From a candidate division FCPU426 bacterium (GTDB taxonomy: Bacteria > Oederibacteriota > JAAXVQ01 > JAUVAV01), in the NCBI GenBank assembly GCA_040756875.1, contig JBFLYH010000002.1, positions 703,078 through 767,077 on the forward strand: DNA of 64,000 nucleotides, in the 5' to 3' direction. Below are positions 11,842 through 48,352 of the stretch, one piece after another (the first letter of the stretch is position 1; each line of letters starts with the position of its first letter). Under the pieces are notes generated by a model, which was not told the DNA's origin, made no database searches, and saw nothing but the letters and a program-made list of their open reading frames with translations. Made by a program: the position numbers and the translations under genes.

Positions 11842-11853
11842 TAAAAATTACCT

Positions 11854-28446: not shown

Positions 28447-29199
28447 CTACGTCACCAGCCCGCCGTCCACGACCAGCACCTGGCCGTTGATGTAGCGGGC
28501 CTCGTCGGACAAAAGCCAGACCACGGCCGCCGCGATTTCATCCGGCTCTCCGAAGCGGCCGAGCGGAATGGTCTGAAGGGCCCAGTCGCGGATCCGGTCC
28601 GGCAGGCTGGCGGTCATGCGCGACGTCACGTACCCAGGGGCCACGGCATTCACCCGCACGCCGAAGTGCCCGGCTTCCCGGGCCAGGGACTTGACCAGGC
28701 CCAGCACGCCCGCCTTGGCGGCCGCATAATTGGCCTGACCCACCGACCCGGTCAGGGCCGCGATCGAGGACACGTGCACCATGGCGCCCTGTTGCTGCTT
28801 GAGCTGGTCGAAAATCAGGGCACGGGAAAAAAAGAAGGCCGCGTCCAGGTTGGCGTCCAGCACTTCCCTCCACTCCGCTTCTTCCATGCGCGCGAACACG
28901 AGGTCGTGGAGATGGCCGGCGCAGTTGGCGAGGTAATCCGCCGGGCCGCGCCACTCCCGGACTTCGGCCGCAATCCGCCGCGCGGTTTCCAGCCGGTTCT
29001 CGGCCACGGCCCAGCCGCGCACCGCTCCGCCCAGCTCTGTTTCCAGTGCCTTGGCGGCCTCCTGGTTGCTGTGATAGGTAAAGGCCACCTGCAGCCCGGC
29101 GGCTGACAGCCGGCGCACCACGCAGCGGCCGATGTCGCCCGTGCCGCCGGCCACCAAAGCCACGCGGCCGCGGAAATGAAGTCCGTTGTCCGTGTTCAC
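28447..29199 (-). CDS. 3-oxoacyl-ACP reductase (FabG-like)
   Basis: GGTGDIG, GQANYAAAKAG, VNAVAPG, IPLGRFG, VDGG. Confidence 0.88.
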   Translation of the reverse strand: MNTDNGLHFRGRVALVAGGTGDIGRCVVRRLSAAGLQVAFTYHSNQEAAKALETELGGAVRGWAVAENRLETARRIAAEVREWRGPADYLANCAGHLHDLVFARMEEAEWREVLDANLDAAFFFSRALIFDQLKQQQGAMVHVSSIAALTGSVGQANYAAAKAGVLGLVKSLAREAGHFGVRVNAVAPGYVTSRMTASLPDRIRDWALQTIPLGRFGEPDEIAAAVVWLLSDEARYINGQVLVVDGGLVT

Positions 29200-29238
29200 C
29201 TGCCTGCCTCCGCCTCGTCTGTTTTCGGCCCGTTCGCT

Positions 29239-29925
29239 TCAGATTTCAGCATGATCCCTTTCGGTTTCGTATAATTGCCGCACCCGCGCCTCCAGTTCCC
29301 GGTTCAGCCGGCGCGCGGCCTTGGGCAGAATCTCCCCGGGTTCGAGCCGCCTGACCATGGGCGCGCCGAACCGCACCTCGATGGGCCGGCGGCGCGGCCA
29401 CCAGCGGCCGGCAGGCAGGGCCTCGAAGGTTCCCCGCACGGCCACGGGCACGAGCGGAACGCCGCTGTCGAGGGCCAACATGGCCAGCAGGGGCTTAAAG
29501 GGCAGCAGCGACCCGTCGCGGGTGCGCGAACCCTGGGCGAACATCAGCAGCGAATATCCGGCCGCCAGCAACTGCCGCAGCCGGCTGTACTCGTCCAGGG
29601 TGGCCTGGCGCCGGTTGAGCGGAAAATTATGGTATGAGAGCCATTGCGTGACCCAGCGCCGCCAGGGCTGCTGGTAAAAAAAATCCGCGGCCGCAGCGAC
29701 ATAGGTGCGCCGCCGCAGCGCCGCGGGCATTCCCTCGAGCACGGCCCAAAAATCCAGATGGCTGGCGTGCGTCGGGGCCAGCACCACCTGCCCCAGCCCG
29801 GTCAGGCGTTCCGTGCCGATGGCACTCCACCCGCACCAGCGCTTCAGGACCAGACTCAGGGCCTGCCGCGCCACATGTTGCGTCGCACGCCGTGGCCAGG
29901 GCGGTGGAAATCCGGGCAGGTCCAC
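29239..29925 (-). CDS. lysophospholipid acyltransferase (PlsC family)
   Basis: HASHLD (HX4D), FAQGSRT (FPEGTR-like), VPVAVRG. Confidence 0.88.
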   Translation of the reverse strand: MDLPGFPPPWPRRATQHVARQALSLVLKRWCGWSAIGTERLTGLGQVVLAPTHASHLDFWAVLEGMPAALRRRTYVAAAADFFYQQPWRRWVTQWLSYHNFPLNRRQATLDEYSRLRQLLAAGYSLLMFAQGSRTRDGSLLPFKPLLAMLALDSGVPLVPVAVRGTFEALPAGRWWPRRRPIEVRFGAPMVRRLEPGEILPKAARRLNRELEARVRQLYETERDHAEI

Positions 29926-29928
29926 GCT

Positions 29929-30408
29929 TCACACCCGGGCGAAAAAGATTACGCACCGCGCCGCCACATCTTCGCCGATGCGGGCTTCAATCTCGTACAT
30001 GGCGTTGTTGCTCAACGCCTTCAACTGCCGGCCGATGATGAGCAGCTGGTCCCCGGGTTCCGGGCTCCGCTTGAGCTCCACGTGCTTGATCCGGGTCAGC
30101 AGGACGCGCAACGGCGGCACCCGCTTTTGCAGGTATTCGTCGTACGAACCCGCGGTTTGGGCCATGCACTCCAGCAAAATGCTCCAGGGCAGGCGGTAGC
30201 CCTCCTGTTCCGAGTACACCATGCACCATTCGTTGCGCGTGATGTTTTTCAGCACCCGGATTTCGTTGTCGTCCCGCACCAGGATCCTGTCGATGAAACG
30301 GTAGGGCGGCTGGCTTTCCACAAACCGGTCCGGATGCTCGGGATCAGGCCCGGCGGCCGCCAGGTGGACCTTGAAGTGTTCCAAACGCGTCGGATCGTCC
30401 ATGTTCAA
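29929..30408 (-). CDS. FabZ/FabA hotdog-fold dehydratase-like protein lacking the HFP histidine
   Basis: PPYRFIDRI, KNITRNE, LLECMAQ, PGDQL; start uncertain (30408 or 30402). Confidence 0.7.
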   Translation of the reverse strand: MNMDDPTRLEHFKVHLAAAGPDPEHPDRFVESQPPYRFIDRILVRDDNEIRVLKNITRNEWCMVYSEQEGYRLPWSILLECMAQTAGSYDEYLQKRVPPLRVLLTRIKHVELKRSPEPGDQLLIIGRQLKALSNNAMYEIEARIGEDVAARCVIFFARV

Positions 30409-30436
30409 TCCGGCCGCCTTTCGCGAAGAATCTCCG

Positions 30437-31630
30437 TCATGCCGCCTCCAGCACCAGGGCCGCGGCTTTGCGGTCCTGCTCCAAAGCCAGCACCACGGCC
30501 CGCTTTCCGGACACTGCCCGCGCCTCGCGGTTCAGGTTTATCCTTTGCGCCAGTCCCGCGTCCCCCAGGTTCAAGGTCCCGGGGATCCGCCCCTGCCTCA
30601 GGCACTCCAGCGCCAACACGGCCGCCAACGTCCCGTGCGCGTGATACGTCTCGCCCAGCGCCCCTTTCAAGGCCGTGGCTGGCGGCAGGTTCCCGCCGAA
30701 CACGCGCTCCAGCGCCTTGGCTTCGGCCTGGTCTTGCGACGCGTGGCCGTTCCCCGCCACGAACACCGCCGACACGTCCCGGGCCTCCAGCCCGGCCTGC
30801 TTCAGGGCCTGGCGCAAAGCCGCTTCCGCTGCCGCGGGATCTCCGCCCTTTGCTCCGGGATTCACGCCCATCCCGCTCCCCAACAGACCACCCAGCACCC
30901 GCGCCCCGCGCGCGCGCGCCTCGCCTTCGGTCTCCAGCATCATCAAACCGCACCCTTCGCCCGCCGTGATCTGGTTCGGCGCGCCTAGCCTCAGGGCCGT
31001 TGCCTGCCCTGCGTCCGCGTTCCGCCGGAATGCCTGGTGGAAACTGTAGCGGAACTGCTCGTTGCGCTCCTCGGCGCCGCCGGCCATCACCCAGCGCGCG
31101 CGGCCCGCGCGCAGGGCCAGCGCGGCCTGGTCCAGGGCCTCCAGCCCGGCGGTGAACCCCGTGGTCACGGTCATCGCGAACGCCTGCGCCTTCAGGTAGA
31201 TCGTCACCTGCGAGGCCGTGGCATTGGTGGAAATGTTCAGGAAAAACGCCGGATTGAGCAGGCTGAGGTTTTGGTTCCGGATGGTCTCCACGAACTCTTC
31301 GGAAAAAATGTTGTGGTTGTATCCCATGACCAGGCCCGCGTCTTCGGGGCGCCACGCCTGCTCCAGGCCGCTTTCCTTCCTCAGCTCCCGCGCCGCCAGG
31401 CACGCCATCAGCGCCGCCCGGTTGTGGTTGCGCCAGCCCTTCCCGCCCAGCGCCTGCTTCAGGTCCGCGCCCACTTCGCCGAACCAGGCCGCTTCCTTCA
31501 CTCCGAGCGCTTCCAGGCCGCAGGGGTTCAGTCCGCTCCCGCCTTCCAACAGCCGGTTCGCCGCCTCCTCCGGCGAGGCCCCCAGGCTGCACACCAGGCT
31601 CGTCCCCGTGACCACCACGCGTTCCCTCAT
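30437..31630 (-). CDS. ketosynthase-like chain-length factor (non-catalytic), copy 1
   Basis: KS fold with TTGFTAG in place of the Cys motif, VAGNG and GETY in place of the His motifs; ATGA-coupled to the upstream KS. Confidence 0.82.
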   Translation of the reverse strand: MRERVVVTGTSLVCSLGASPEEAANRLLEGGSGLNPCGLEALGVKEAAWFGEVGADLKQALGGKGWRNHNRAALMACLAARELRKESGLEQAWRPEDAGLVMGYNHNIFSEEFVETIRNQNLSLLNPAFFLNISTNATASQVTIYLKAQAFAMTVTTGFTAGLEALDQAALALRAGRARWVMAGGAEERNEQFRYSFHQAFRRNADAGQATALRLGAPNQITAGEGCGLMMLETEGEARARGARVLGGLLGSGMGVNPGAKGGDPAAAEAALRQALKQAGLEARDVSAVFVAGNGHASQDQAEAKALERVFGGNLPPATALKGALGETYHAHGTLAAVLALECLRQGRIPGTLNLGDAGLAQRINLNREARAVSGKRAVVLALEQDRKAAALVLEAA

Positions 31631-32886
31631 CGCCGCCATCCCGCTTCAGCCACTTCGCCAAACACCAGGCTGTCGTTGTTCCCGCCGAATCCCGAGGAGT
31701 TCGTCAGGCACGTGCGCAAACGCAGGCTCCGCGCTTTCCGCACTACTTCCACCGGGCACTCCGGGTCCGTCTCCTCGTGGTTGATCGTCGGCGGCAGCGT
31801 CTGGTGCTTCAGGCTCAGCACGCCGATCACCGCTTCGATCGCGCTCGCCGCTCCCATCGCATGCCCGATCATGGACTTGGGCGCGGTCACCGGCGGCACG
31901 CGTTCCCCGAACACTTCCCGGAACGCCTGGGCCTCGGTCCGGTCGTTCCCCGGCGTTCCGGTCCCGTGCGCCACGATCCCGTCAATCTCCTCCGCCTTCA
32001 GCCCCGCATCCTTCAAGGCCAGGGCCACCGACTGCCGGGTCCCCCACCCTTCGGGGTGCGGCGTGGACAGGTGGTACGCGTCGCTCGACCACCCATATCC
32101 CAGCACCCGGGCGTAGGCTTTCCCGCCCCGTTGCCTCAGGCTCTCGCCGGATTCCAGCACCAGCGCCGCTCCGGCCTCGCCCATGATCAGCCCCCGCCGC
32201 GCGCGGTCAAACGGGCGGCAGCAGTCCGGCGCCATGGCCCGCAGGCTGCAAAAGCCCGTGTAATCCGGCTCGGCCAGCAAATCCATGCCGCCGGCCAGAA
32301 CCACGTCGGCCAGGCCCTGGCGAATGCGCTCCACGGCCAGGGACAGCGCGTAGCCGCTGGCCGCGCAGGCGTTCGTGTTCGTGCTCTGCCAGCCCGTGAG
32401 CCCCAGCCGCTGCGCCATCTGGTAGAGAAAGCTGTAGGTCACGTTCTCGCTCACGATGTCGCGCGTGACCTCCAGGGCGCTGGCCAGGTCCTGCGTTTCC
32501 CAGGTCCGCTTGCAGCGCACCACGTGCTCGTTCAGGTCGCCGTGGGTGGTGCCGAACACCAGGTCCACGGCGCCGTGCTGCGAGCGCTGGTCCGCGCCCA
32601 GCCACCCCGCGTCCGCCAAGGCTGCCCGGCCGGCCGAGAGCGCCAGCCGCGCCGCCGGATCCAGGGCTTTTTGTTCCTCAGTGCTCAAGTTGCGCAGGCC
32701 GTCCAAATCCTTGATCTGCGCGGCCATGTGCACGGGCAGCCAGCGGGTGTCGAAGCGCGTCACCGGGCCCACGCCGGACGTCCCGGCGACCAGGGCCGGC
32801 CAGAACGCCTCCGCGCCCGCGCCCAGCGGCGTGTTCAGGCCCAATCCGGTCACATAGACTTCAGGCCTGCCGGCGCGGGCCGTCAT
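31627..32886 (-). CDS. beta-ketoacyl-ACP synthase (KS), copy 1
   Basis: NACAAS (Cys), AHGTGT, KSMIGH, GFGGNN; true start is the ATGA overlap with the Lnt-like stop, not the 807-aa ORF start. Confidence 0.92.
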   Translation of the reverse strand: MTARAGRPEVYVTGLGLNTPLGAGAEAFWPALVAGTSGVGPVTRFDTRWLPVHMAAQIKDLDGLRNLSTEEQKALDPAARLALSAGRAALADAGWLGADQRSQHGAVDLVFGTTHGDLNEHVVRCKRTWETQDLASALEVTRDIVSENVTYSFLYQMAQRLGLTGWQSTNTNACAASGYALSLAVERIRQGLADVVLAGGMDLLAEPDYTGFCSLRAMAPDCCRPFDRARRGLIMGEAGAALVLESGESLRQRGGKAYARVLGYGWSSDAYHLSTPHPEGWGTRQSVALALKDAGLKAEEIDGIVAHGTGTPGNDRTEAQAFREVFGERVPPVTAPKSMIGHAMGAASAIEAVIGVLSLKHQTLPPTINHEETDPECPVEVVRKARSLRLRTCLTNSSGFGGNNDSLVFGEVAEAGWRR

Positions 32887-34637
32887 GCCGGCCTCTCCTG
32901 GCCGGACTTGGAAAAACGCTCGCGCCCCCAGCTCCAGGCCATCATCGCGACCAAAACGGCGGTCAGGCCCAGCACCAGCCATCCCATCCAGTCGCCGCAG
33001 CGCACGTAAACCGTTTTTCCGTTGAGCAGGGGCAGGCGTTTGACCAGCGCCGCGCGCTGGCCGAAGGGCGCGCGGTCGCGGACCAGGCCAAGCGGATCCA
33101 CGTACGCCGCGCTCGCCGTGCTCGAAACCAGCCCGACCCAGCGCCGGGTTTCCACGGCGCGGAAGCAAGCCATCTGCAGGCGCATGTTGAAAAACACCGG
33201 CGTGGGAAACCAGTTGCCCGTGCCGGCGTTCAGGATGACCTCGCCGCCCAGGCGCACGCCCTGGACGAAATACTGAGGAAACATGATTTCCTCGCACACC
33301 CGCAGGATCACCGCGCCCTGCGGCAGCTGGAACACCTTGCTGGCCGATCCAGGCGACAGGTCTTTCATGTCCTCGTCCACGGAGGTAAGCTTGAGCAGTT
33401 CGTAGGTCGTCGCGAAAACACGGTTCAGCAGGCGGATCGCGCCGTTCACCAGCGGCCGGCCGGGCATGTATTCCCCGAAGGGTATGAGGTACTGCTTCAG
33501 GTAATAATCGCGGATCTTTCCCTTCGCGTCGACCAGGTACCAAACATTGAAGCGCCGTTCGGAGTCCAGGGCGGTGACCAGCCCGATGATCGCCGGCACG
33601 CCCGCCTCCTCGAGTATGTCCTGGAAGTCCCGCCACACCTTGGCCGTGGAGGGCAGGGTCAAGGGCAGTGCGCTCTCGGTAAAAACCAGCAGCTCGGCGC
33701 GGTCGGCTTTGGCGTTCAGGGCCAGCCGGCGGAAAAGGACGATGGCGGACTGCTTGATGCGTTCGCTCCACTCGCCATAATTGCCCGCGTCGAACTGCCC
33801 CTGCAACAAGGCCGGACGGAGGCTGCGCTCGGCCTGCGATTGCAGGCGTTCCACCTTGGCCGCGTCGAGGTTGCCGGCCACGATCAGGGCCGCGAAGCCC
33901 AGGCCCAAAACCGCGGCCATCAGGCTGTTGACGAGAAGCGGGCGCCCCTCCGCGGCCGGCACCTTGCCGGCAAGCACGGGCTCGGGCCGGCGCACATCCC
34001 AGGCGCGCAGGAAGCGCCAGGCCAGGAGGGCCAGGCCGGCGGCCACGCACAGCACGAAATAATCAGCGCCCAGCACGCCGGTCAGGGACGCCATTTGCAT
34101 GAGCGGCGGAAGCCCGGCCAGCGGATACGCATACAGCAGAATGGGCGGCGGGAAGAACCAGATTTTGGGCGTCAGCACCAGGCGCAGAAATTCGAAGGCC
34201 GCAAAATTCGCCGGTGCGAACAGCAAATACCAGGCGGGAAAGCGGCGGATGCAGGCGCCGGCCCACAGGCCCACGTTCCCGAAAATGCCGTACACCATGG
34301 CCGCGAGAAAAAGAAAAATCAGCGGCGTGGCCAGGGGAAACGAGGGCAGCATCTCGAACCACAGGGTGGCGGGAATCAAAAACATGGCCAGGCCGGACAG
34401 GCCGCACCAGCGGTAGGCTTCGCGGCCCTGGTAGCGCAGCATAATCATGAAGGTGGGCATTGGCACCAGAAACACCAGCAGCGCGGACAGGATGTTCGAC
34501 TCCGGCAGCAGGTAATTGGGCCACGCGAGATAGGCGCACAGCGCCTGCAGGATCAGCAGCCATGGCATGGGGCGTTTCAACGCGGATACCATCCATCCCC
34601 TCCGGGTCTCAGGCGCCGGTTTTTCGGCGAGCCGCAA
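32883..34637 (-). CDS. apolipoprotein N-acyltransferase (Lnt)-like, paralog 1
   Basis: Multi-TM N-terminus, nitrilase triad FTES/YLKQYLIPFGEY/VCEE, FRAVE, TVYVRCGDW; start uncertain. Confidence 0.85.
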   Translation of the reverse strand: MRLAEKPAPETRRGWMVSALKRPMPWLLILQALCAYLAWPNYLLPESNILSALLVFLVPMPTFMIMLRYQGREAYRWCGLSGLAMFLIPATLWFEMLPSFPLATPLIFLFLAAMVYGIFGNVGLWAGACIRRFPAWYLLFAPANFAAFEFLRLVLTPKIWFFPPPILLYAYPLAGLPPLMQMASLTGVLGADYFVLCVAAGLALLAWRFLRAWDVRRPEPVLAGKVPAAEGRPLLVNSLMAAVLGLGFAALIVAGNLDAAKVERLQSQAERSLRPALLQGQFDAGNYGEWSERIKQSAIVLFRRLALNAKADRAELLVFTESALPLTLPSTAKVWRDFQDILEEAGVPAIIGLVTALDSERRFNVWYLVDAKGKIRDYYLKQYLIPFGEYMPGRPLVNGAIRLLNRVFATTYELLKLTSVDEDMKDLSPGSASKVFQLPQGAVILRVCEEIMFPQYFVQGVRLGGEVILNAGTGNWFPTPVFFNMRLQMACFRAVETRRWVGLVSSTASAAYVDPLGLVRDRAPFGQRAALVKRLPLLNGKTVYVRCGDWMGWLVLGLTAVLVAMMAWSWGRERFSKSGQERPA

Positions 34638-36273
34638 CTACGGTCAGCAACAGCGTCAGCAGTACGCACAGCCAGGCAAACACATCTCCGAACCGCGCGT
34701 AAAAAGTCAGGCCGTCAAGCAAGGGCAGGGTCGGCACGGCCACCACCCGCTTCCCATAAGGTGTTTCACTCCGCACCGCGCCCAGGGCGTCGATTGTGGC
34801 CGCCGCGCCCATGTTGGCCACCACCCCGATCCAGCGCCGGGTCTCCACCGCCCGGAAGGCGCTTGTCTCCAGGTTTAAATACCAGTCCACCGGCGTCTTG
34901 AACCAGTTGACGGTCCTGGGCGTGAGAATCACATCGGCGCCTTGCATGACCGCCTGCCTGAAAAACCGGGGAATGATCGTTTCAGTGCATACCTTCAGCG
35001 CCACCCGTGCGCCGGCCACGTCAAATATTTTTTCCTGTTTGCCGGCACGAAGATCATAGTAATCCCGCGGAATGGCCGTAATTTTCAAGACCCGATAGGA
35101 CGTGCGCAAGAGTTTGTTTACTCCCGTCATCACCGGGTCCACCAAGCTGCGCAAGGGCAGGTACTCGCCAAACGGCGTCAGGTAGCGTTTGAGGTAATAA
35201 TCCTGGACCGTTCCCTGGGCGCTGATCAAATACCAGATATTGAAAACCTGCTCCTCCTCCACCGTGGTCGTAAGCCCCACGAAGGCCGGCAGGCCCACTT
35301 CCTTGAAGATGGTGCGGAGGTTCTGCCAGGCGTGCTCGTCCGCCGGCAGGGTCATGGGCAGTGCGTTCTCGGTGAAAACCAGCACCTGACCGCCTTGGGC
35401 CAGGGCTTCCAGGCTCATGTCACGATAGGTGCGCAGGGCAAATCCCTGCTGGGGCCTGCTCCAGTCCTTGGCCCGCGAGGGATCGAACTGGGATTGCAGC
35501 AACGCGGGACGCAGCGTGCGCCGCGCCTGGTCCTGCAGGCGGCTGACGCGCAGGGCGTCTACGTTACCCAGCATGAACAGCGCGAACAAAACCGCCACCG
35601 TGCCGCTGGCCACGGCCACTGTGAGGGTCCGCTGTCCGGGAGCGAGGGCGGGTATGTTCTGGGTGACGGGGAGGTGGGTGCGAAACCACGCCAGGCGGCC
35701 AAGAAGCGACAGCGCGACCAAGGCCAGGAGGGAGCTGATGAAAAAGGCAAGGAAAGCCGGTCCGTAGTATCCGGTGTAGGCGCTCATTTGGATCAGGGGC
35801 GGAAGCCCGGCAAAAGGAAAGGCAAACAACAACGAAGGAGGCGGCACCAGTGAAAAATGCTCGGCCAGCAGCACGCGCATGAACTCCTGGTTGCAAATGA
35901 TGGCCGGCGCCGCCAGGGTGAACGCCCAGGGCAGGCGCCGGTAAATGAACGAACCCAGATAACCGCAGGCGCCTCCCAGCAGAAAGGACAGCGCCAGTAC
36001 CAGCAGCCAAATCAATACGCCGGTCACGGGAAAGAAATTCATATGGACCAGGTGGACGGTCGGCAAAAGAACCATGGCCACTACAGATAATCCGGACCAC
36101 ACAAAAACCTGCCTCCCCCGGTAGGCCAGGAAGATGATGAAGTAGGTCGCGCCCATCAAGGGCAGGAGCAGGGCCGAAACGGGGTTGGGCCGGTAAAGGA
36201 TGGGGTTGGGAAACGCCAGAAAGGCAATCAGCGCCTGGATCAGCAGCAAACTTACGGAGAGAAAGGCTGGCAT
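34609..36273 (-). CDS. Lnt-like N-acyltransferase, paralog 2
   Basis: FTEN/YLKRYLTPFGEY/VCTE, FRAVE, TFYARFGD. Confidence 0.85.
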   Translation of the reverse strand: MPAFLSVSLLLIQALIAFLAFPNPILYRPNPVSALLLPLMGATYFIIFLAYRGRQVFVWSGLSVVAMVLLPTVHLVHMNFFPVTGVLIWLLVLALSFLLGGACGYLGSFIYRRLPWAFTLAAPAIICNQEFMRVLLAEHFSLVPPPSLLFAFPFAGLPPLIQMSAYTGYYGPAFLAFFISSLLALVALSLLGRLAWFRTHLPVTQNIPALAPGQRTLTVAVASGTVAVLFALFMLGNVDALRVSRLQDQARRTLRPALLQSQFDPSRAKDWSRPQQGFALRTYRDMSLEALAQGGQVLVFTENALPMTLPADEHAWQNLRTIFKEVGLPAFVGLTTTVEEEQVFNIWYLISAQGTVQDYYLKRYLTPFGEYLPLRSLVDPVMTGVNKLLRTSYRVLKITAIPRDYYDLRAGKQEKIFDVAGARVALKVCTETIIPRFFRQAVMQGADVILTPRTVNWFKTPVDWYLNLETSAFRAVETRRWIGVVANMGAAATIDALGAVRSETPYGKRVVAVPTLPLLDGLTFYARFGDVFAWLCVLLTLLLTVVAARRKTGA

Positions 36274-36482
36274 GTTTGCTTGCCCTTTCTTCAGTCAGCC
36301 GATATGGAGCCCTCCGGGCATGCCCGGGGTACCCATTCCTGCCCTGCGTTTCTTGCAGGATAGGCGGCGACATCCTCGCAGCAGAAGATCCGCATTCATC
36401 CCCGGCCATAGGCCGGGGTTTCCTGCGAAGGGGATGAAGTGGAGCCGCGTCGCGTTTCCGGGCCTTCTCCCAGCGAAGCTGC

Positions 36483-38171
36483 CTACGGACGCCGGGTGGC
36501 GGCGAACGCGACCAACAGCAGTATCACCAATACGCACAGCCAGGCAAACAGGTCGCCGAAGCGTGCGTAAAAAGTCAGACCGTCCAGCAACGGGAGCGTC
36601 GGCACGTCCACCGCCCGTATTCCGTAGGGTGTTTCGCTCCGCACCACGCCCAGGGCGTCGACGGTGGCCGCGGCGCCCATGCTGGCCACCAGGCCGATCC
36701 AGCGCCTGCTTTCCACCGCCCGGAACGAACAGGCCTCCATGTTCAAATACCAGTCCACCGGCGTTTTGAACCAATTGACCGCCCTGGGCGAGAAAAACAC
36801 TTCCGCTCCCTGGTTGACCGCCTGCCTGAAAAACCGGGGGATGGTGGTCTCGGTGCAGACCTTGAGGCTGACCCGGGCGCCGGCCACGGCGAACACCTTC
36901 TCCTCCCGTCCTGCGCCCAGATCGTAATGATCGTTGGGAATGGCGGTGATTCTGAAAATTTTATAGCTCGTGTTGAGCAAGGCGTTTACGCCGCCCAGCA
37001 CCGCATCCACCAATCCGCGCAAGGGCAAATACTCGCCAAAGGGGGTTAAGTACCGCTTGATATAATGATCCTCCATTTCGCCTTGCGCGCTGATCAGATA
37101 CCAGACATTGTACGTTTCCTCGTCTCCCACGGTGGTGATCAGGCCCACGAAAGCCGGCAGTCCGGTTTCCCTGAAAATGCCGCATAAATGCTGCCAGGCC
37201 TGCTGTTCCCCGGGCAGGGTCAGAGGCAGCGCGTTTTCAGTGAACACCAGCACCTGGGCCTGCTTGGCCACGGCTTCGTAGCACATCTGCCGGTAGGTGC
37301 GCAGCGCGAATCCCCTCTGGGGCGGGCCCCATTCCGGAGCCTGGGAAGGGTCGAACTGGGATTGCAACAGGGCGGGCCGGATCACGCGCTGCGCCTCCTT
37401 TTGCAGGCGGCTGAAGCGCATCGCGTCCGCGTTTCCCAGCACAGCCAGGAACAACAGGCCCGCGGCCACGGCCACGGACACCAGGCCGGCCAGCCGGCGC
37501 TGGGGCGCGGTTAAAACCAGATCCGGCTTGATCCAGCCGGCCCGCGCCAGGAATTCCGCCGCAACTTGGGCCAGGACCGCGCCGACGAAAAACACCATGA
37601 GCGCCGGCCCGTACAAACCCGTGAACGCACTCATTTGGATTAAAGGCGGCCAGCCGGCCAGGGGCAGGGACAGGGTGAACGACGGAGGCGGAACCAGCGA
37701 AAAAACTTCCGACAGCAGGACCCGGCCGAATTCCTCGCCGCACAGCAAAACCGGGGCCGACAGGGAAAACGACCAGGGCAAACGCCGGAAGATGAATGCG
37801 CCCAGGGACCCGTAGGCGCCGCCCAGCAGGAACGTCAGGGCGAGCGTCAGCAGCCAGAGCAACGCGCCGGTTACGGGAAACAAACTAATTTGGGTCAGGT
37901 GAAACGTCGGCAACAGGACAACAGCCGCCACGGAGAGTCCGGTCCAGAGAAAAGCCTGGCGCCCGCGGTATAGCAGGACAAATAAAAAAACCGGGGCCAA
38001 CGCGAGCGGCAACAGCAGGGCTGACACCGGATTGGGTTTCATGAGCAGGGGGGTGGGATAAGCCAGGAAAGCCATGAGTGCTTGCACCAGCAATACCAGC
38101 ACAGACACCTGCATCGGCATTTTCTTTGGGTCCTTTCCTCTGCCGGACGATTCCCGGTACGGCAACTTCAC
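36483..38171 (-). CDS. Lnt-like N-acyltransferase, paralog 3
   Basis: FTEN/YIKRYLTPFGEY/VCTE; long identical blocks shared with paralog 2. Confidence 0.85.
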   Translation of the reverse strand: MKLPYRESSGRGKDPKKMPMQVSVLVLLVQALMAFLAYPTPLLMKPNPVSALLLPLALAPVFLFVLLYRGRQAFLWTGLSVAAVVLLPTFHLTQISLFPVTGALLWLLTLALTFLLGGAYGSLGAFIFRRLPWSFSLSAPVLLCGEEFGRVLLSEVFSLVPPPSFTLSLPLAGWPPLIQMSAFTGLYGPALMVFFVGAVLAQVAAEFLARAGWIKPDLVLTAPQRRLAGLVSVAVAAGLLFLAVLGNADAMRFSRLQKEAQRVIRPALLQSQFDPSQAPEWGPPQRGFALRTYRQMCYEAVAKQAQVLVFTENALPLTLPGEQQAWQHLCGIFRETGLPAFVGLITTVGDEETYNVWYLISAQGEMEDHYIKRYLTPFGEYLPLRGLVDAVLGGVNALLNTSYKIFRITAIPNDHYDLGAGREEKVFAVAGARVSLKVCTETTIPRFFRQAVNQGAEVFFSPRAVNWFKTPVDWYLNMEACSFRAVESRRWIGLVASMGAAATVDALGVVRSETPYGIRAVDVPTLPLLDGLTFYARFGDLFAWLCVLVILLLVAFAATRRP

Positions 38172-38252
38172 GCCCGTTCCGAAAAACGCCTGCTTTTTTG
38201 GGCTATTCCGGCGCCCGCCAAGCGCCGCGGATTCAAATGCGCCGGATATCCT

Positions 38253-38291
38253 TGAATAATAACATACTTTGCGAGGATCGCCAAAACGTAT
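38253..38291 (-). promoter_or_regulatory. conserved 39-bp promoter element, copy A (upstream of the Lnt-like genes)
   Basis: Minus strand ATACGTT-TTGGCG-N17-TATTAT with TG; 33/39 identical to 43347-43385. Confidence 0.75.
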
Positions 38292-38352
38292 CTCCGCTTC
38301 ATCTTGCTGGCGCTGGATGGAACCAATGGTGCGGCAGGACCAGGGGGGAGGT

Positions 38353-39531
38353 TTAGGCGGGCAATTCCAGCAGGCAGGCCATGGCTTTGCGATCCTGGTC
38401 CAGGGCCATGACCATGGCCCGCCGGGCGTTCAATGGACGAGCCGTCATAGGCAGGTAAAGCTCGCGCGCGGCCCCAGACGAAGGCAAACGCTGCGTTGGC
38501 AACAGGAGGCGATGCTCGAGGCAGAGAATGGCCAGCACTGCGGCCATGGCACCGGCGGCGTGCCATGTTTCCCCCAGTGCTCCCTTGAGCGCGGTCATGG
38601 GCGGCCGCTGGTTCCCAAAAACGTTTTTCATGCTTTCCATCTCAGCCTGATCCTGCGCCGGATCGCCATTGGCGGCAAGAAAAACCGCTTCCACGTCCCC
38701 GGCCTTCCAGCCGGCGTCAGCCAAAGCCGCGGCGATGGCTTGGTTGCAGGCGCGGGGATCGCCTTGGCCGGCTGCCTCCGGATTATATGCCATGCCAAAG
38801 CCGCATAGCCGGGCCCTGGGGCGCAGCCCCTGTTGACGAGCTTCGTCGGCTCTCAACAAAAACATCCAGGCTGAGCCTTCTCCGAGATCAACGGCGCCCG
38901 GACGCCAGCCCTCCAGGATTCCCGTCCCTGATCCGGGGGGAGCGCCGGGCCCGGAAAAACCCCGCACCATTCTGGCACTGATTTCCTGAACCGCACCGGC
39001 TGCCACCTGCCGGGCCCGGCCGGTGGATAAAACCCGACACGCGGTTTCCAATGCTTCCAGCCCGGCCGTATGCCCGGTGGACATCGTCAAAATGAACGCC
39101 TGGATCCCGAGGAGGATCGACACTTGGCTGGCCGTGGCATTCGCCGACAGATTCAGAAAAAAGAAAGGGCTCATCAGATGATATTCGCGGGTGGACAAAA
39201 CCTGCAGGATGGTGTCGGAATAAATGTCCGGCGTGAATCCGGTCACCAGGCCGGTCTCCGCCGCCGCCGGTGGCTGCCCCGTGTCTTTCGCCCAGGCCTG
39301 CCACAAGCGGCGGCACGCTGCGCCGGCCAGCAGGGACGAACGTGTGAACCCCTGTTTTTTTCCGTTGCCCAGCAACACCCGGAGGTCCTGGGACACCGGG
39401 GCGCTTTCGGTCCCGTCGGACCCGCGTGTCAATCCCTGCCGGCCGGCGGCCAGGCTATCGAAAACCGCCTGCGGGTCGTCGCCCAGGGCATGCACCAGGC
39501 CAAGGTGGGTGATTACGATCGCGTCTTTCAC
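38353..39531 (-). CDS. ketosynthase-like chain-length factor (non-catalytic), copy 2
   Basis: STGHTAG, LAANG, GETW; paralog of 30437-31630; GTGA-coupled to KS copy 2. Confidence 0.82.
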   Translation of the reverse strand: MKDAIVITHLGLVHALGDDPQAVFDSLAAGRQGLTRGSDGTESAPVSQDLRVLLGNGKKQGFTRSSLLAGAACRRLWQAWAKDTGQPPAAAETGLVTGFTPDIYSDTILQVLSTREYHLMSPFFFLNLSANATASQVSILLGIQAFILTMSTGHTAGLEALETACRVLSTGRARQVAAGAVQEISARMVRGFSGPGAPPGSGTGILEGWRPGAVDLGEGSAWMFLLRADEARQQGLRPRARLCGFGMAYNPEAAGQGDPRACNQAIAAALADAGWKAGDVEAVFLAANGDPAQDQAEMESMKNVFGNQRPPMTALKGALGETWHAAGAMAAVLAILCLEHRLLLPTQRLPSSGAARELYLPMTARPLNARRAMVMALDQDRKAMACLLELPA

Positions 39532-40742
39532 GCAGGCCCGCTTTCGGCCTGCTGCAAGATCAGGCTGAGGTTGTTGCCGCCGAATCCCATGGCATTGACC
39601 ATGCACGTTTCCAGTCTGCCCGCCTTGGGCTCGGACACGACTACGGGCAGCGGACAGTCCGGATCCATCTCGATCGTTTCGGAAACCGGCGGGATCTGTC
39701 CCTCCCGCAGCATGAGCGCCGCAGACAGAATGTCAACCGCCTGGGCCGCGCCCTGTGAATGCCCCACGCGGGGTTTGAACGCCGTGACCGGCGGCAGGTC
39801 CGGACCGAAGACCGCCTGCAGGGCCCGGGCTTCCGCGCGGTCGTTGCTGGGCGTTCCGGTGCCGTGAGCCACCACACAGCTGATCTGCGCAGGCGCCAGC
39901 CGGGCCGCCTGCAACGCGCGCCGCATGGCGGTTTCCAGACCTTCGCCGCGGGGCCGGGGCGCGGAAATATGATAAGCGTCCGCGGACCAGCCTTCTCCGG
40001 CCAGTCGCGCCCACGGCCGCGCGTTCCGGCTCCGCGCGGAATCGGCCGATTCCAGAAGAAACATGGCGGCCGCGTCGCCCAGCATCGTGCCTTCTCGGCC
40101 ACGGTCGAACGGCCGGATGCACGACGGCGCCAGGGCCCGCAGGTTGGCGAACCCGGCCTGCACGACCTCGGCAAACAGGTCCGCAGCCCCGCACAAGACC
40201 GCTTCCGCACGCTCCAGGCGGATGAGGTCCGCGGCCAGGGAAACAGCGTACCCGGCCGCGGCGCAGGTGTTGGTGTTCAACCCCTGGGCCTCCCGCAATC
40301 CCAGCGCCCGGGCCATGTCCGTTAAAAAAGCATAGGGTTGCCGCTCACGAAATCCCGCGCCCAGGGTCTCCTCCGGTTCCCTGCGCAGGTAGTTTTCGCC
40401 GTCATTCAAACCGCCGTTGCTGGTGCCGAGCAGCACGGCGAGGCTAGGCAACCGGCTGCGCCGCTCCTCTGACAGCAGGCGGGCATCCGCCAGAGCCTGC
40501 CGCGCGGCCGACAAAGCGGCGGCGGCGAGCCGGCTGAGGCGTCCGGTTTCCTCCGGGTCCAGCCACTGATCAGCGGCCAATGGCTCGATTTCGGCGCCGC
40601 GAACAAAAGCCAGGCCCTGGGTATTGAATTTTTGTATGGGTTTTATTCCTGAACGGCCTTCCAGGCAGGCTTGCCAATAAGGCGCTACGCCGATTCCCAG
40701 TGGCGTAACCGCTCCCATCCCTGTGATCCAAACATCCCTCAT
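39528..40742 (-). CDS. beta-ketoacyl-ACP synthase (KS), copy 2
   Basis: NTCAAA (Cys), AHGTGT, KPRVGH, GFGGNN. Confidence 0.92.
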   Translation of the reverse strand: MRDVWITGMGAVTPLGIGVAPYWQACLEGRSGIKPIQKFNTQGLAFVRGAEIEPLAADQWLDPEETGRLSRLAAAALSAARQALADARLLSEERRSRLPSLAVLLGTSNGGLNDGENYLRREPEETLGAGFRERQPYAFLTDMARALGLREAQGLNTNTCAAAGYAVSLAADLIRLERAEAVLCGAADLFAEVVQAGFANLRALAPSCIRPFDRGREGTMLGDAAAMFLLESADSARSRNARPWARLAGEGWSADAYHISAPRPRGEGLETAMRRALQAARLAPAQISCVVAHGTGTPSNDRAEARALQAVFGPDLPPVTAFKPRVGHSQGAAQAVDILSAALMLREGQIPPVSETIEMDPDCPLPVVVSEPKAGRLETCMVNAMGFGGNNLSLILQQAESGPA

Positions 40743-40862
40743 GGTTCTTCCTTGTTCGTTTGATCCTGCCACCCGGCCTGCGGGATGGGCATCATGACCA
40801 GGTGCCAAAGCAGACAGGAAGCTTTTGGACCGTATTCGCCGCTTGACGCCGCGTGGAGCCGG

Positions 40863-41174
40863 TCAGCCCGCGCCCCCGCCGCTTTCAGAAGGAGGCGCGG
40901 ACGGCGTCCGGGCTTTATCTTCCATTTTCCGGCGGATGAGCTCGACCACCTGGCCGAGCTGGGTCACCTGTTTCAGATCCTCCTCGGAAAGACCCACGCC
41001 GTAGCGGCGCTCCAGGGTCACCAGGACCTCGAGCAGGGCCACGGAATCGATCTGCATGATCTGTTCCAGTGAACCGTCGAGCCGCACCTGGTCGGGGTCC
41101 ACTTCCAACACCTCGACCACGAGGTCCTTGATTTCCTGTTCCAGATTTTCGGGGATAGGTTTCTGCTCGGTCAT
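40863..41174 (-). CDS. acyl carrier protein
   Basis: Small and acidic; QIDSVALLE phosphopantetheine-attachment motif; ATGA overlap with the SPFH gene. Confidence 0.85.
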   Translation of the reverse strand: MTEQKPIPENLEQEIKDLVVEVLEVDPDQVRLDGSLEQIMQIDSVALLEVLVTLERRYGVGLSEEDLKQVTQLGQVVELIRRKMEDKARTPSAPPSESGGGAG

Positions 41175-42031
41175 TTCTTCCCCGCCGTGGCTGAACTGAT
41201 CCGCTCAGCCAGGGGTTTCAGAAAACCAAGAAATTCCATGGGCAGAATGTACTTGGCCGCCGGGCTTTCGCCGAGCGCCTTCAGGGCCTCGAGATACTGC
41301 AGGCTGATGGTCTTGTCGTCGATGCGGTTGGCGGCCGCGAAGATTTTTTCCAGGGCCTGGGCATACCCCTCGGCCTTCAGGATCTGGGCCTGGCGTTCGC
41401 CCTCGGCCTGCAAAATCCGCGATTGCCGGTCGCCTTCGGCCACGGTGATGGAAAACTGCTTTTTACCGTCCGCTTCCAGCACCAGGGCGCGCCGGGTCCG
41501 CTCGGCGGCCATTTGCTTGTTCATGGCCTCCTGCACGTCGGCCGGCGGCTGGATCTCGCGGATTTCCACGGTCGTAACCTTGACGCCCCAGCGCTCGGTG
41601 ACTTCGTCCAGTTTGGCCCGCAGCACGCGGTTGATGTCCTCGCGCTTGGCCAGCACGTCGTCCAGGGGAATGTCGCCCACCACCGCGCGCAGCGTGGTCA
41701 TGGCGATGCCCTGCGCGGCGCCGGAGAAATTGCGCACTTGGACCACCGAGTGCACGGGGTTGGTCACCTTGAGGTAGATGAGGAAGTCGATGGCAATGGG
41801 CGCGTTGTCCTTGGTGATGCAGGTTTGGGAGGGGATCTCCAGGAAAATTTCCCGCAGATCGACGCTCACGACTTTATCGATGAACGGAATGATCACCACC
41901 AGGCCCGGCCCGAGCTGGCCCTTGCAGGCCCCCAGGCGGAAGAGCACCAGGCGCTGGTACTCGGGAACGATTTTCACCGCCATCATCACCAGCAGCACGG
42001 CGGCCGCAATCAACGTGGCATAGACACCCAT
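41171..42031 (-). CDS. SPFH/stomatin-like (band 7) protein
   Basis: N-terminal TM, FRLG, PG...IPFID, ITKDN, WGVKV, AERTRRA. Confidence 0.92.
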   Translation of the reverse strand: MGVYATLIAAAVLLVMMAVKIVPEYQRLVLFRLGACKGQLGPGLVVIIPFIDKVVSVDLREIFLEIPSQTCITKDNAPIAIDFLIYLKVTNPVHSVVQVRNFSGAAQGIAMTTLRAVVGDIPLDDVLAKREDINRVLRAKLDEVTERWGVKVTTVEIREIQPPADVQEAMNKQMAAERTRRALVLEADGKKQFSITVAEGDRQSRILQAEGERQAQILKAEGYAQALEKIFAAANRIDDKTISLQYLEALKALGESPAAKYILPMEFLGFLKPLAERISSATAGKK

Positions 42032-42050
42032 GACAAGCCTCCCTGGAAAT

Positions 42051-43316: not shown

Positions 43317-43346
43317 GGCAACACCCCTGGGCAGCGAGGATAATAG

Positions 43347-43385
43347 TGAATAATAGCATATTTTCAAGGGATCGCCAAAACGTAT
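43347..43385 (-). promoter_or_regulatory. conserved 39-bp promoter element, copy B (upstream of nfeD-SPFH-ACP)
   Basis: Minus strand ATACGTTTTGGCGATCCCTTGAAAATATGCTATTATTCA. Confidence 0.75.
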
Positions 43386-48349: not shown

Positions 48350-48352
48350 GGA

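What the first reader, a model, noticed from the sequence alone, without database searches (positions are those of the whole stretch)
28447..41174. Type II FAS/PKS-like cluster built around three tandem Lnt-like N-acyltransferases: candidate pathway for custom acyl chains
Seen: one co-oriented, largely overlap-coupled run ACP - KS2 - CLF2 - Lnt3 - Lnt2 - Lnt1 - KS1 - CLF1 - FabZ-like - PlsC-like - FabG. Known: KS/non-catalytic CLF heterodimers with FabG and hotdog dehydratases occur in aryl-polyene and highly reducing type II PKS; PlsC moves acyl-ACP onto lysophospholipid; Lnt moves a phospholipid acyl chain onto an amine and is usually a housekeeping gene outside such clusters. Inference: the cluster makes an unusual (long or polyene) chain, loads it onto a phospholipid carrier and uses the Lnt paralogs to transfer it on the outer face of the membrane to lipoproteins, peptides or amino-glycans. 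I do not recall a described cluster with this architecture.
Basis: partly seen in the sequence, partly recalled or inferred. Interest (0 to 1): 0.9.

Follow-up and report, generated by a model that had tools for sequence, protein, structure and literature searches.

The report
Acyl-chain operon with Lnt-like acyltransferases
A rare, divergent branch of the lipoprotein N-acyltransferase (Lnt) family sits in one operon with its own fatty-acid-building enzymes in several uncultured bacterial lineages, which suggests an undescribed way of attaching a custom lipid chain to the cell envelope.

Summary
Window 28447-41174 (minus strand) carries 11 co-oriented genes: ACP, KS2, CLF2, three Lnt-like genes, KS1, CLF1, a FabZ-like hotdog gene, a PlsC-like acyltransferase and FabG.

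The link is not chance. All 5 other genomes found with an Lnt of this clade have ACP, KS, CLF and the hotdog gene beside it. None of 74 canonical-lnt loci has a CLF, ACP or hotdog match.

The Lnt-like proteins form a small, sharply separated clade: 15 representatives among 1.84 billion. They keep the Lnt fold and the Glu-Lys-Cys triad. The aromatic residue after the catalytic Cys is replaced (0 of 26 against 103 of 104 canonical).

- The hotlog "FabZ" lacks the catalytic His in 6 of 6 orthologs.
- FabG is missing from 2 of 6 loci.
- No aryl-polyene accessory genes were found.

A polyene product is therefore not supported. In one lineage the block lies inside a lipid A/LPS-core operon.

Best reading (about 0.45): a dedicated acyl chain is loaded on a membrane lipid, then transferred by the Lnt-like enzymes on the outer face of the inner membrane. 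Product and acceptor are unknown. I found no description in print.

The parts
40863..41174 (-). Dedicated acyl carrier protein (103 aa), phosphopantetheine Ser in the motif DSV
   Evidence: PF00550 E=1.2e-10. All NCBIfam ACP models score below cut-off. Sequence. An ACP lies beside the Lnt-like gene in 6 of 6 genomes.
39528..40742 (-). KS2, catalytic ketosynthase (Cys/His/His kept). The ORF runs up to TTG 40808; ATG 40742 has a Shine-Dalgarno-like AAGGAAG.
   Evidence: PF00109 and PF02801. fabF model 281 bits against cut-off 494. Active-site columns in A4. Start codons.
38353..39531 (-). CLF2, non-catalytic ketosynthase partner (Cys>His, His>Ala, His>Glu)
   Evidence: Pfam. Alignment A4. Groups with P0275 inside the CLF family, SH-aLRT 99.
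38121..38352 (-). Non-coding gap upstream of Lnt3 with one sigma-70-like site (38284-38256)
   Evidence: The promoter count in the region is not clearly above shuffles (6 against 2.2, sd 1.7), so this is a lead only.
36483..38120 (-). Lnt3, Lnt-like membrane acyltransferase with the Glu-Lys-Cys triad kept. The ORF runs up to GTG 38171.
   Evidence: TIGR00546 128.6 bits against cut-off 132.9. Triad. Sister to (P0121,(Lnt2, L001_LntB)) in the tree.
34609..36273 (-). Lnt2, Lnt-like membrane acyltransferase with the triad kept
   Evidence: TIGR00546 132.3 bits against 132.9.. 76% identical to the first Lnt of L001. Query of the exhaustive search.
32883..34592 (-). Lnt1, Lnt-like membrane acyltransferase with the triad kept. 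The ORF runs up to TTG 34637; the database record of 569 aa starts at ATG 34592.
   Evidence: TIGR00546 143.1 bits.. AF2 model pLDDT 88.6. Foldseek top hits are all Lnt structures, target TM-score 0.73-0.81.
31627..32886 (-). KS1, catalytic ketosynthase (Cys/His/His kept)
   Evidence: fabF model 333 bits against cut-off 494. PDB: 9s5h_B 276, 6kxd_A 267, 1j3n 266 bits. A4.
30437..31639 (-). CLF1, non-catalytic ketosynthase partner (Cys>Phe, His>Ala, His>Glu)
   Evidence: Pfam, NCBIfam, A4. Only 12 close clusters in 5.8 billion proteins. AF2 model pLDDT 89.8 with a generic KS fold.
29929..30408 (-). FabZ-fold hotdog protein without the catalytic His (Ser at that position); the Glu is kept
   Evidence: No Pfam hit. 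FabZ models 42 bits against cut-off 113. A2. Profile against PDB FabZs. Atlas structure TM about 0.8 to FabZ/ApeP-like clusters.
29239..29925 (-). PlsC/LPLAT-family acyltransferase (HX4D present as HASHLD)
   Evidence: PF01553 E=4e-17. Weak matches to AGPAT and to the acyltransferase part of acyl-ACP--phospholipid O-acyltransferase. Atlas. Present in 5 of 6 genomes.
28447..29199 (-). FabG-type ketoreductase (SDR)
   Evidence: PF13561 E=2e-53. FabG equivalog 233 bits against cut-off 298. Present in 4 of 6 genomes.

Best explanation
This is an envelope-lipid operon that couples synthesis of a dedicated acyl chain to a special branch of Lnt-type transacylases.

Proposed steps:
1. The dedicated ACP and the KS1/CLF1 heterodimer build or extend an acyl chain on the cytoplasmic side. 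In this genome a second pair, KS2/CLF2, also takes part. FabG reduces the keto group. The His-less hotdog protein probably acts as a non-catalytic or atypical partner. The remaining steps (malonyl transfer, dehydration, enoyl reduction) would be borrowed from the housekeeping FAS II. The product is therefore more likely a long or modified fatty acyl chain than a polyene.
2. The PlsC-like acyltransferase moves the chain from ACP onto a membrane glycerolipid or lysolipid.
3. After the lipid flips, the Lnt-like enzymes take the chain onto their Cys as a thioester. Their active site faces the periplasm. They pass the chain to an amine of an envelope molecule.

My single best guess for the acceptor is lipoprotein N-termini. 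An amine on LPS or a glycolipid comes second. The two or three paralogs would differ in donor or acceptor.

Shown here: gene content, catalytic residues, fold and topology, the clade, and the conserved linkage. Inferred: every chemical step, the carrier lipid, the product and the acceptor.
For: - Linkage: ACP, KS, CLF and hotdog lie next to the Lnt-like gene in 5 of 5 other genomes of the clade. For canonical lnt loci the count is 0 of 74.
- Co-distribution: the Lnt-like and CLF1 families are both tiny (15 representatives; 12 clusters). They share contig lengths in three cases: 77160, 12088 and 35268.
- Active site: the Glu-Lys-Cys triad is present in 24 of 26 family members and in all three window copies.
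- Fold and topology: full-length Lnt fold with 8 TM helices. Basic N- and C-termini place the catalytic domain outside the cytoplasm, read from the sequence. Acyl-ACP cannot then be the direct donor.
- Canonical mechanism: PDB titles for Lnt list a thioester acyl-intermediate and PE and lyso-PE complexes. The abstract of PMC5500890 in the listing states that Lnt takes the acyl chain from a phospholipid.
- Carrier loading: the PlsC-like protein has HX4D and matches acyl-ACP-dependent phospholipid acyltransferases.
- Changed specificity: the residue after the nucleophile is aromatic in 103 of 104 canonical Lnts. It is never aromatic in the 26 family members (mostly Asp or Glu).
- Dependence on housekeeping FAS: no enoyl reductase or malonyl transferase gene in any locus; FabG missing in 2 of 6; hotdog His-less in 6 of 6.
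Against: - No product, donor or acceptor was observed. Everything chemical is inference from family membership and gene order.
- PlsC is absent from the L002 locus, so the carrier-loading step is not universal within the block.
- I could not test whether these genomes also have a canonical lnt and fabF. If they do not, the Lnt-like genes may simply be the housekeeping Lnt.
- The only informative neighbourhood (L002, L003) points to LPS rather than to lipoproteins.
- Loci were retrieved through the Lnt-like protein, so the reverse question was not tested: does every CLF1-like gene have an Lnt neighbour?
- L002 and L003 are close relatives, and L001 is a sister of the window. The independent lineages therefore number about four.
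Confidence: 0.45

Rival explanations
1. LPS-directed pathway, analogous to the rhizobial acpXL-lpxXL cluster for the very-long-chain fatty acid of lipid A. The dedicated ACP, the KS pair and the hotdog protein make a special chain. The PlsC-like enzyme puts it directly on a lipid A/core precursor in the cytoplasm. The Lnt-like enzymes then remodel or further acylate LPS after export.
For: In L002 and L003 the block lies in one co-oriented run. Upstream are a UDP-GlcNAc 3-dehydrogenase-like gene, LpxB, Kdo transferase, LpxK and GT9/GT2 genes. Downstream are GT4, GT2, two GT9 genes and a deacetylase. The acpXL-fabZXL-fabF2XL-fabF1XL-adhA2XL-lpxXL cluster has the same parts list: ACP, FabZ-like, two FabF-like genes, a dehydrogenase and an acyltransferase. 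It also relies on general FAS enzymes (passages of PMC11901934).
Against: This context occurs in one lineage only (2 of 6 genomes, closely related to each other; tree). The window, L001, L004 and L005/L006 are not in LPS loci. The acyltransferase is PF01553, not the LpxL family. No known lipid A step uses an Lnt-type enzyme. L002 lacks the PlsC-like gene.
Confidence: 0.22
2. Co-regulated but not substrate-coupled. The KS/CLF/ACP/PlsC genes make a special membrane phospholipid. The Lnt-like genes are the organism's ordinary apolipoprotein N-acyltransferases, kept in the same operon because both serve envelope biogenesis.
For: Lnt1 passes the NCBIfam lnt equivalog cut-off (143.1 against 132.9), and Lnt2 and Lnt3 fall just below it. 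Fold and triad are those of Lnt. Public records name the family members 'apolipoprotein N-acyltransferase'.
Against: The clade is sharply separated, with a changed residue next to the nucleophile. It carries 2-3 paralogs in 3 of 6 genomes. The linkage is conserved across at least three lineages that share no other flanking genes. Among canonical lnt loci, 0 of 74 show a CLF, ACP or hotdog match.
Confidence: 0.15
3. Highly reducing type II PKS that makes a polyene (aryl-polyene, flexirubin or ishigamide type), which the Lnt-like enzymes anchor to the envelope.
For: A KS/CLF heterodimer with a KR and a hotdog protein and no enoyl reductase. KS1 scores 267 bits to the ishigamide KS 6kxd_A. FabG matches the flexirubin reductase model at 177 bits, below its cut-off of 340.
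Against: The hotdog protein lacks the catalytic His in 6 of 6 orthologs. The H48N mutant of a FabZ is much less active (passages of PMC10139942). FabG is absent in 2 of 6 loci. No starter ligase, thioesterase, methyltransferase, LolA-like or MMPL gene was found in any locus. KS1 scores only 142-156 bits to ApeO/ApeR structures, against 266 to a FabF.
Confidence: 0.1
4. The Lnt-like proteins act as hydrolases (lipid amidases or phospholipases) rather than transferases. They would release or trim the custom chain.
For: They belong to the carbon-nitrogen hydrolase superfamily (PF00795). The pocket next to the Cys is changed.
Against: The whole Lnt membrane architecture and the residues Lnt uses for transfer are kept.
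Confidence: 0.05

Closest known systems
Apolipoprotein N-acyltransferase Lnt (E. coli and P. aeruginosa structures 5n6h, 5n6m, 6nwr, 8b0l)
   Same: 8-TM plus nitrilase-domain architecture. Predicted structure aligns over about 575 columns with target TM-score 0.73-0.81. Glu-Lys-Cys triad, the PFGE Glu and the NWF motif are kept.
   Different: Only 17-21% identity to the solved Lnt structures in the fold alignment, and at most 28% for the nearest canonical hits. A separate clade. LNT_N Pfam is below its gathering score. Aromatic residue after the Cys is replaced in 26 of 26. Present as 1-3 tandem copies inside an ACP/KS/CLF operon. Canonical lnt loci show this in 0 of 74.
Rhizobial VLCFA cluster acpXL-fabZXL-fabF2XL-fabF1XL-adhA2XL-lpxXL (PMC11901934, passages)
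   Same: A dedicated ACP, a FabZ-like protein, two FabF-like proteins, a dehydrogenase and an LPLAT-superfamily acyltransferase in one co-oriented cluster. It makes a special envelope acyl chain with help from the general FAS. In L002 and L003 the block is also in a lipid A locus.
   Different: It has no Lnt-type gene. Its acyltransferase is annotated as a lipid A biosynthesis lauroyl acyltransferase (LpxXL; figure legend in the passages), whereas here it is a PlsC-type PF01553 protein. I did not test whether FabF1XL/FabF2XL form a KS/CLF pair or whether FabZXL keeps its His. From recall only, the NCBIfam models PRK09116 and PRK06519 are the XL synthases; they score far below cut-off here (202 and 30-64 bits).
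Highly reducing type II PKS KS/CLF pairs (ishigamide Iga11/Iga12, 6kxd; aryl-polyene ApeO/ApeC, 7F28, 6qsp)
   Same: A catalytic KS paired with a partner that lacks the active-site Cys, a discrete ACP, a KR and a hotdog protein, and no ER in the cluster.
   Different: The hotdog protein has no catalytic His. No starter or export genes. KS1 is equally close to FabF. ApeO/ApeR score only 142-156 bits.
NodFE plus NodA/NodB of Nod-factor synthesis, and the Lnt/LplT/Aas lysophospholipid cycle of E. coli (both recalled, not tested here)
   Same: The logic only. In the first, a specialised ACP and KS make a custom chain that an N-acyltransferase puts on an amine. In the second, Lnt consumes the sn-1 acyl of a phospholipid, and an acyl-ACP-dependent acyltransferase re-acylates the lysolipid.
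   Different: The N-acyltransferases are unrelated (NodA). All Nod steps are cytoplasmic. No LplT-like gene was seen in the loci. The match of the PlsC-like protein to the Aas-type model is weak (37 bits against cut-off 1221).

Membership tests
Apolipoprotein N-acyltransferase (Lnt, TIGR00546 / PF20154+PF00795) | Multi-pass membrane domain with an extracytoplasmic nitrilase-fold domain between TM7 and TM8 | tested here: met
   AF2 model of Lnt1 (pLDDT 88.6). Foldseek top 24 listed hits are all Lnt, target TM-score 0.73-0.81.
Apolipoprotein N-acyltransferase (Lnt, TIGR00546 / PF20154+PF00795) | Glu-Lys-Cys catalytic triad | tested here: met
   Present in Lnt1, Lnt2 and Lnt3 and in 24 of 26 family members. 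The triad is in 104 of 104 canonical sequences.
Apolipoprotein N-acyltransferase (Lnt, TIGR00546 / PF20154+PF00795) | Score at or above the curated family cut-offs | tested here: inconclusive
   TIGR00546: 143.1, 132.3 and 128.6 bits against 132.9. PF20154 LNT_N: 19.9 bits against 27.1 for Lnt1, and no hit for Lnt2 or Lnt3.
Apolipoprotein N-acyltransferase (Lnt, TIGR00546 / PF20154+PF00795) | Aromatic residue directly after the nucleophile Cys (Tyr388 in E. coli numbering, recalled) | tested here: not met
   F/Y/W in 103 of 104 canonical sequences and in 0 of 26 family sequences (Asp 14, Glu 4, Thr 3, others 5).
Apolipoprotein N-acyltransferase (Lnt, TIGR00546 / PF20154+PF00795) | Branches with housekeeping Lnt orthologs | tested here: not met
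   29 family rows against 13 canonical rows are split by a branch with SH-aLRT 100. Bit scores fall from 185 to 116.
Apolipoprotein N-acyltransferase (Lnt, TIGR00546 / PF20154+PF00795) | N-acylates the diacylglyceryl-Cys of apolipoproteins using a phospholipid donor | not testable with these tools
   Needs complementation of an lnt depletion strain or an in vitro assay.
Type II KS/CLF systems (highly reducing PKS or FAS-like elongation) | A catalytic KS (Cys-His-His) next to a partner that lacks the active-site Cys | tested here: met
   5 of 5 KS rows keep C/H/H. 15 of 15 CLF rows have F/H/P/N, Ala and Glu instead.
Type II KS/CLF systems (highly reducing PKS or FAS-like elongation) | A functional in-cluster dehydratase (catalytic His plus Glu/Asp) | tested here: not met
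   The His column holds Ser, Ser, Asp or Asn, or falls in a 3-residue deletion, in the 6 orthologs. The Glu is invariant.
Aryl-polyene / flexirubin clusters | Starter-unit enzymes, a second KS (ApeR type), a thioesterase, and LolA-like and MMPL export genes | tested here: not met
   None found in the window cluster or in the flanks (up to 10 kb each side where the contig allowed) of L002, L003, L004 and L006. ApeO/ApeR score 142-156 bits to KS1.
Rhizobial acpXL-lpxXL VLCFA cluster | An LpxL-family late acyltransferase and a location with lipid A genes | tested here: inconclusive
   The acyltransferase is PF01553, not the LpxL family. A lipid A/core context occurs in L002 and L003 only, 2 of 6 genomes.

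The most novel reading that the evidence does not exclude
A previously unrecognised branch of the Lnt family works as a donor-dedicated transacylase. The operon makes its own acyl chain and parks it on a membrane lipid. The Lnt-like paralogs then install it on the outer face of the inner membrane onto a non-lipoprotein amine, such as an LPS-core or lipid A amino sugar or an aminolipid head group. This would be a new route of periplasmic N-acylation and a new class of envelope lipid in candidate phyla (Goldiibacteriota, Firestonebacteria and unclassified lineages).
Probability: 0.3. Interest if true: 0.85.

Novelty: new variant of a known kind. Interest (0 to 1): 0.68.

Why it matters
Lnt is treated as a single-purpose housekeeping enzyme that uses bulk phospholipids. 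Here a distinct Lnt branch is genetically tied to a dedicated ACP and KS/CLF machinery and has a changed residue next to the nucleophile. That suggests Lnt-type chemistry (phospholipid to Cys thioester to amine) has been recruited for a pathway-specific lipid.

This gives a concrete, testable handle on envelope lipids of uncultured phyla and on the substrate range of an antibiotic-target enzyme family. It also shows that KS/CLF pairs with a catalytically disabled FabZ-like partner exist outside classical polyketide clusters.

Tried and rejected
- Searches used the wrong frame for CLF1 (30405-31661) and gave no hits. This was corrected.
- L007 (32% partial match) was considered as a family member and rejected. 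It is a canonical Lnt (LNT_N 136.5 bits), has no KS, CLF or ACP nearby, and groups with the outgroup.
- PDB entry 9s5h is the best sequence hit for both KS1 and CLF1. I could not learn what it is: no paper holds the code, and it did not appear among the listed Foldseek hits.
- Atlas look-alikes gave only generic FabZ/ApeP-like and PF01553 clusters.
- Source names for family members gave only 'apolipoprotein N-acyltransferase [bacterium]' or nothing, so they add no taxonomy.
- I considered the deacetylase in L002 and L003 as a periplasmic, NodB-like partner that frees an amine for the Lnt-like enzyme. Its N-terminus shows no signal peptide or TM segment, so that version was dropped.
- The promoter and terminator scan was not clearly above shuffles.
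- Complex prediction was not run. A KS/CLF pass would only reflect solved homologs, and I claim no other binding.
- The third homologous-protein search (fused or longer forms) was not run.

Full report
OBSERVATION. The window is GC-rich (about 62-69% around the cluster). On the minus strand between 28447 and 41174 lie eleven co-oriented genes (ORFs; Pfam; NCBIfam; junctions and start codons):
- ACP, 40863-41174
- KS2, 39528-40742
- CLF2, 38353-39531
- Lnt3, 36483-38120
- Lnt2, 34609-36273
- Lnt1, 32883-34592
- KS1, 31627-32886
- CLF1, 30437-31639
- a FabZ-fold hotdog protein, 29929-30408
- a PlsC-like acyltransferase, 29239-29925
- FabG, 28447-29199

Three details need correcting. CLF1 is the frame 30437-31639, not the overlapping spurious ORF. 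Only four or five of the ten junctions overlap or nearly touch, and two junctions (CLF2>Lnt3 and Lnt3>Lnt2) are gaps of about 200 bp. The run is also contiguous with SPFH/NfeD genes upstream (4-base overlap with ACP) and CinA downstream.

THE PARTS.
- KS1 and KS2 keep the Cys-His-His set.
- CLF1 and CLF2 have Phe or His for the Cys, Ala for the first His and Glu for the second. This pattern holds in 15 of 15 CLF rows, and 5 of 5 KS rows are intact.
- Both KSs score well below the FabF equivalog cut-off (333 and 281 bits against 494).
- The ACP has its Ser in the motif DSV.
- By reading the translation, FabG has the SDR Tyr-x3-Lys and the PlsC-like protein has HX4D (HASHLD).
- The hotdog protein matches FabZ only weakly (42 bits against cut-off 113; no Pfam hit). 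A profile of its six orthologs aligns to solved FabZs with the catalytic His column filled by Ser, Ser, Asp or Asn, or lying in a short deletion, while the catalytic Glu is invariant. In FabZ that His abstracts the C2 proton, and an H48N mutant is much less active (passages of PMC10139942).

THE Lnt-LIKE PROTEINS. All three keep the Lnt Glu-Lys-Cys triad. An AlphaFold model of Lnt1 (pLDDT 88.6, pTM 0.90) has eight transmembrane helices with the nitrilase domain between the seventh and eighth. It aligns over its full length to the E. coli and P. aeruginosa Lnt structures (target TM-score 0.73-0.81). The N-terminus and the tail after the last helix are basic. I therefore place the catalytic domain outside the cytoplasm, as in Lnt; this is an inference.

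They are nevertheless not ordinary Lnt:
- An exhaustive search of 1.84 billion representatives found 15 proteins at E<=1e-30 (185-747 bits). There is then a gap to the canonical Lnt cloud at 116 bits or less; 10,664 proteins in all had E<=1e-3.
- A word-indexed search of 5.8 billion proteins found nine close clusters and then proteins of at most 28% identity.
- In a tree, 29 family rows separate from 13 canonical rows with SH-aLRT 100.
- The residue after the nucleophile Cys is Phe, Tyr or Trp in 103 of 104 canonical sequences. It is never aromatic in the 26 family sequences (Asp 14, Glu 4, Thr 3, others 5).
- Two family representatives (P0130, P0131) have lost both the Glu and the Cys.

Lnt1 and Lnt2 each have an ortholog in the sister genome L001. 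Lnt3 branches just outside Lnt2 and its ortholog, so it is an older copy that L001 lacks.

IS THE LINKAGE REAL? One scan of 185,579 species-representative genomes with the family alignment returned 80 loci. Six of them, from five genomes, belong to the clade:
- L001, a sister of the window with the same flanks
- L002 and L003, unclassified bacteria
- L004, Candidatus Goldiibacteriota
- L005 plus L006, two contigs of one Candidatus Firestonebacteria bin that join inside an Lnt gene

All five genomes have ACP, Lnt-like (one or two copies), hotdog, KS and CLF in one co-oriented block. The PlsC-like gene is present in 4 of these 5, and FabG in 3 of 5. Counting the window as well, PlsC is in 5 of 6 genomes and FabG in 4 of 6.

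As a control, the other 74 loci surround canonical lnt genes. Matches of at least 50 bits to CLF, ACP or hotdog occur in 0 of 74, and to a KS in 2 of 74. Fisher p is 4e-8, or 1.4e-5 counting only three lineages independent of the window's.

Caveats: the loci were found through the Lnt protein, and relatedness reduces the independent cases to about four lineages. Independently, the CLF1 family is just as small: 12 clusters at 234 bits or more, then a drop to 135. Three of its members sit on contigs of the same length as Lnt-like hits (77160, 12088, 35268).

The window is the richest version. It has a second KS/CLF pair, whose CLF groups with P0275 inside the same family (SH-aLRT 99), and a third Lnt.

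CONTEXT. In L002 and L003 the block lies inside a tightly packed, co-oriented lipid A/LPS-core run. Upstream are a UDP-GlcNAc 3-dehydrogenase-like oxidoreductase, LpxB, Kdo transferase, LpxK, a GT9 and a GT2. Downstream are a GT4, a GT2, two GT9s and a polysaccharide deacetylase. In L004 and L005/L006 the neighbours are ribosomal-protein and cell-division genes. In the window and L001 they are SPFH/NfeD, DUF3467, a 1543-aa DUF2298/PMT_2 glycosyltransferase and CinA. The only functionally telling neighbourhood therefore points to the outer-membrane glycolipid, and it comes from one lineage.

HOW IT MOST LIKELY WORKS. Shown: the gene set, the catalytic residues, the Lnt fold and topology, the separate clade and the conserved linkage. 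Inferred: the chemistry.

The Lnt-type active site faces away from the cytoplasm, so the ACP-bound chain cannot be its direct substrate. [quoted passage not shown] The simplest consistent path has three steps:
1. ACP, KS/CLF and FabG build or extend a dedicated chain. The housekeeping malonyl transferase, dehydratase and enoyl reductase would supply the missing steps, since no ER or MCAT gene is in any locus and the hotdog protein lacks its His.
2. The PlsC-like enzyme loads the chain onto a glycerolipid or lysolipid.
3. After flipping, the Lnt-like enzymes transfer it to an envelope amine.

The change from an aromatic to an acidic residue beside the nucleophile argues for a donor or acceptor different from that of housekeeping Lnt. 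I put about 0.45 on this scheme. Within it, lipoprotein N-termini are the first guess for the acceptor and an LPS or glycolipid amine the second.

RIVALS.
- An LPS-directed pathway like the rhizobial acpXL-lpxXL very-long-chain cluster, which has the same parts list except for Lnt (passages of PMC11901934): about 0.22.
- Co-regulation without substrate coupling, with the Lnt-like genes serving as the ordinary Lnt: about 0.15.
- A polyene-making highly reducing type II PKS: about 0.10. This is weakened by the His-less hotdog protein, the dispensable FabG, the absence of starter, thioesterase or export genes, and a KS that is no closer to the ishigamide KS (267 bits) than to a FabF (266 bits) and is far from ApeO/ApeR (142-156 bits).
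- A hydrolase role for the Lnt-like proteins: about 0.05.

COMPARISON AND NOVELTY. The proteins belong to known superfamilies. The Lnt-like ones meet the architectural and catalytic definitions of Lnt but fail the ortholog test and one conserved active-site position. The operon resembles the acpXL-lpxXL cluster and KS/CLF systems in logic.

I found no description of an Lnt-type gene embedded in an ACP/KS/CLF operon:
- No paper holds both 'apolipoprotein N-acyltransferase' and 'chain length factor'.
- A search on Lnt, ketosynthase, polyene and lysophospholipid acyltransferase gave only the E. coli aryl-polyene paper, which does not contain the term Lnt (listing only).
- 'Lnt-like', 'Lnt homolog(ue)' and 'Lnt paralog' gave lipoprotein papers only (listing).

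These searches cover open-access text only. Public records simply call the family members apolipoprotein N-acyltransferase. I rate it a new variant of a known kind.

LEFT UNCHECKED.
- The identity of PDB 9s5h is unknown.
- No reference sequences for FabF1XL/FabF2XL, Iga12 or anammox synthases could be brought into a tree.
- No supplementary files were consulted.

Noticed in passing
window 9361-12822 (minus strand), beside tRNA-Met at 14036-14112: A low-GC island (41-42% against about 60-69% in most of the window) encodes an IetA-like AAA ATPase (244 bits) and an IetS-like subtilase (109 bits). This looks like an IetAS defence system inserted next to a tRNA gene.
   Followed up: partly
window 43718-49225 (minus strand): A 1543-aa membrane protein with DUF2298 (Chlor_Arch_YYY, 473 bits) and PMT_2 domains is followed by a UbiA-family protein. 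The latter passes the NCBIfam cut-off for decaprenyl-phosphate phosphoribosyltransferase (283 against 234 bits). Together they suggest a polyprenyl-phosphate sugar glycosylation system. They are conserved next to the cluster in L001.
   Followed up: partly
window 41171-43367; loci L035, L050, L058, L074, L076: SPFH (Band 7) and NfeD genes lie directly upstream of the ACP, with a 4-base overlap. SPFH matches also occur near canonical lnt genes in 5 of 74 control loci, all deltaproteobacterial bins.
   Followed up: no
window 25116-26156 (+); L005 977-2038: An NAD-dependent epimerase / 3-beta-HSD / male-sterility-type reductase lies 2.3 kb from the cluster. It has a 52%-identical homolog directly upstream of the ACP in the Firestonebacteria locus. 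The overlapping minus-strand ORF 25092-25895 is probably spurious.
   Followed up: partly
proteins P0130 and P0131 (relatives, not in the window): Two representatives of the Lnt-like clade have lost both the catalytic Glu and the Cys (Gly/Asn and Pro/Asp). They are probably inactive paralogs. They group next to the L002/L003 branch.
   Followed up: no
window 36400-36418 (minus strand), in the Lnt3-Lnt2 gap: A perfect 8-bp GC hairpin (CCCCGGCC-TAT-GGCCGGGG) without a T-tract lies in the 209-bp spacer. A sigma-70-like site lies at 38284-38256 in the CLF2-Lnt3 spacer. The two spacers flank Lnt3, the gene that the sister genome lacks.
   Followed up: no
window 49374-53660 and 55695-59498 (minus strand): Two very large secreted-type proteins. 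One has 13 LVIVD repeats, FG-GAP repeats and a weak T9SS C-terminal sorting domain (24.7 bits, below cut-off). The other combines a subtilase with FG-GAP and Ig-like domains.
   Followed up: no
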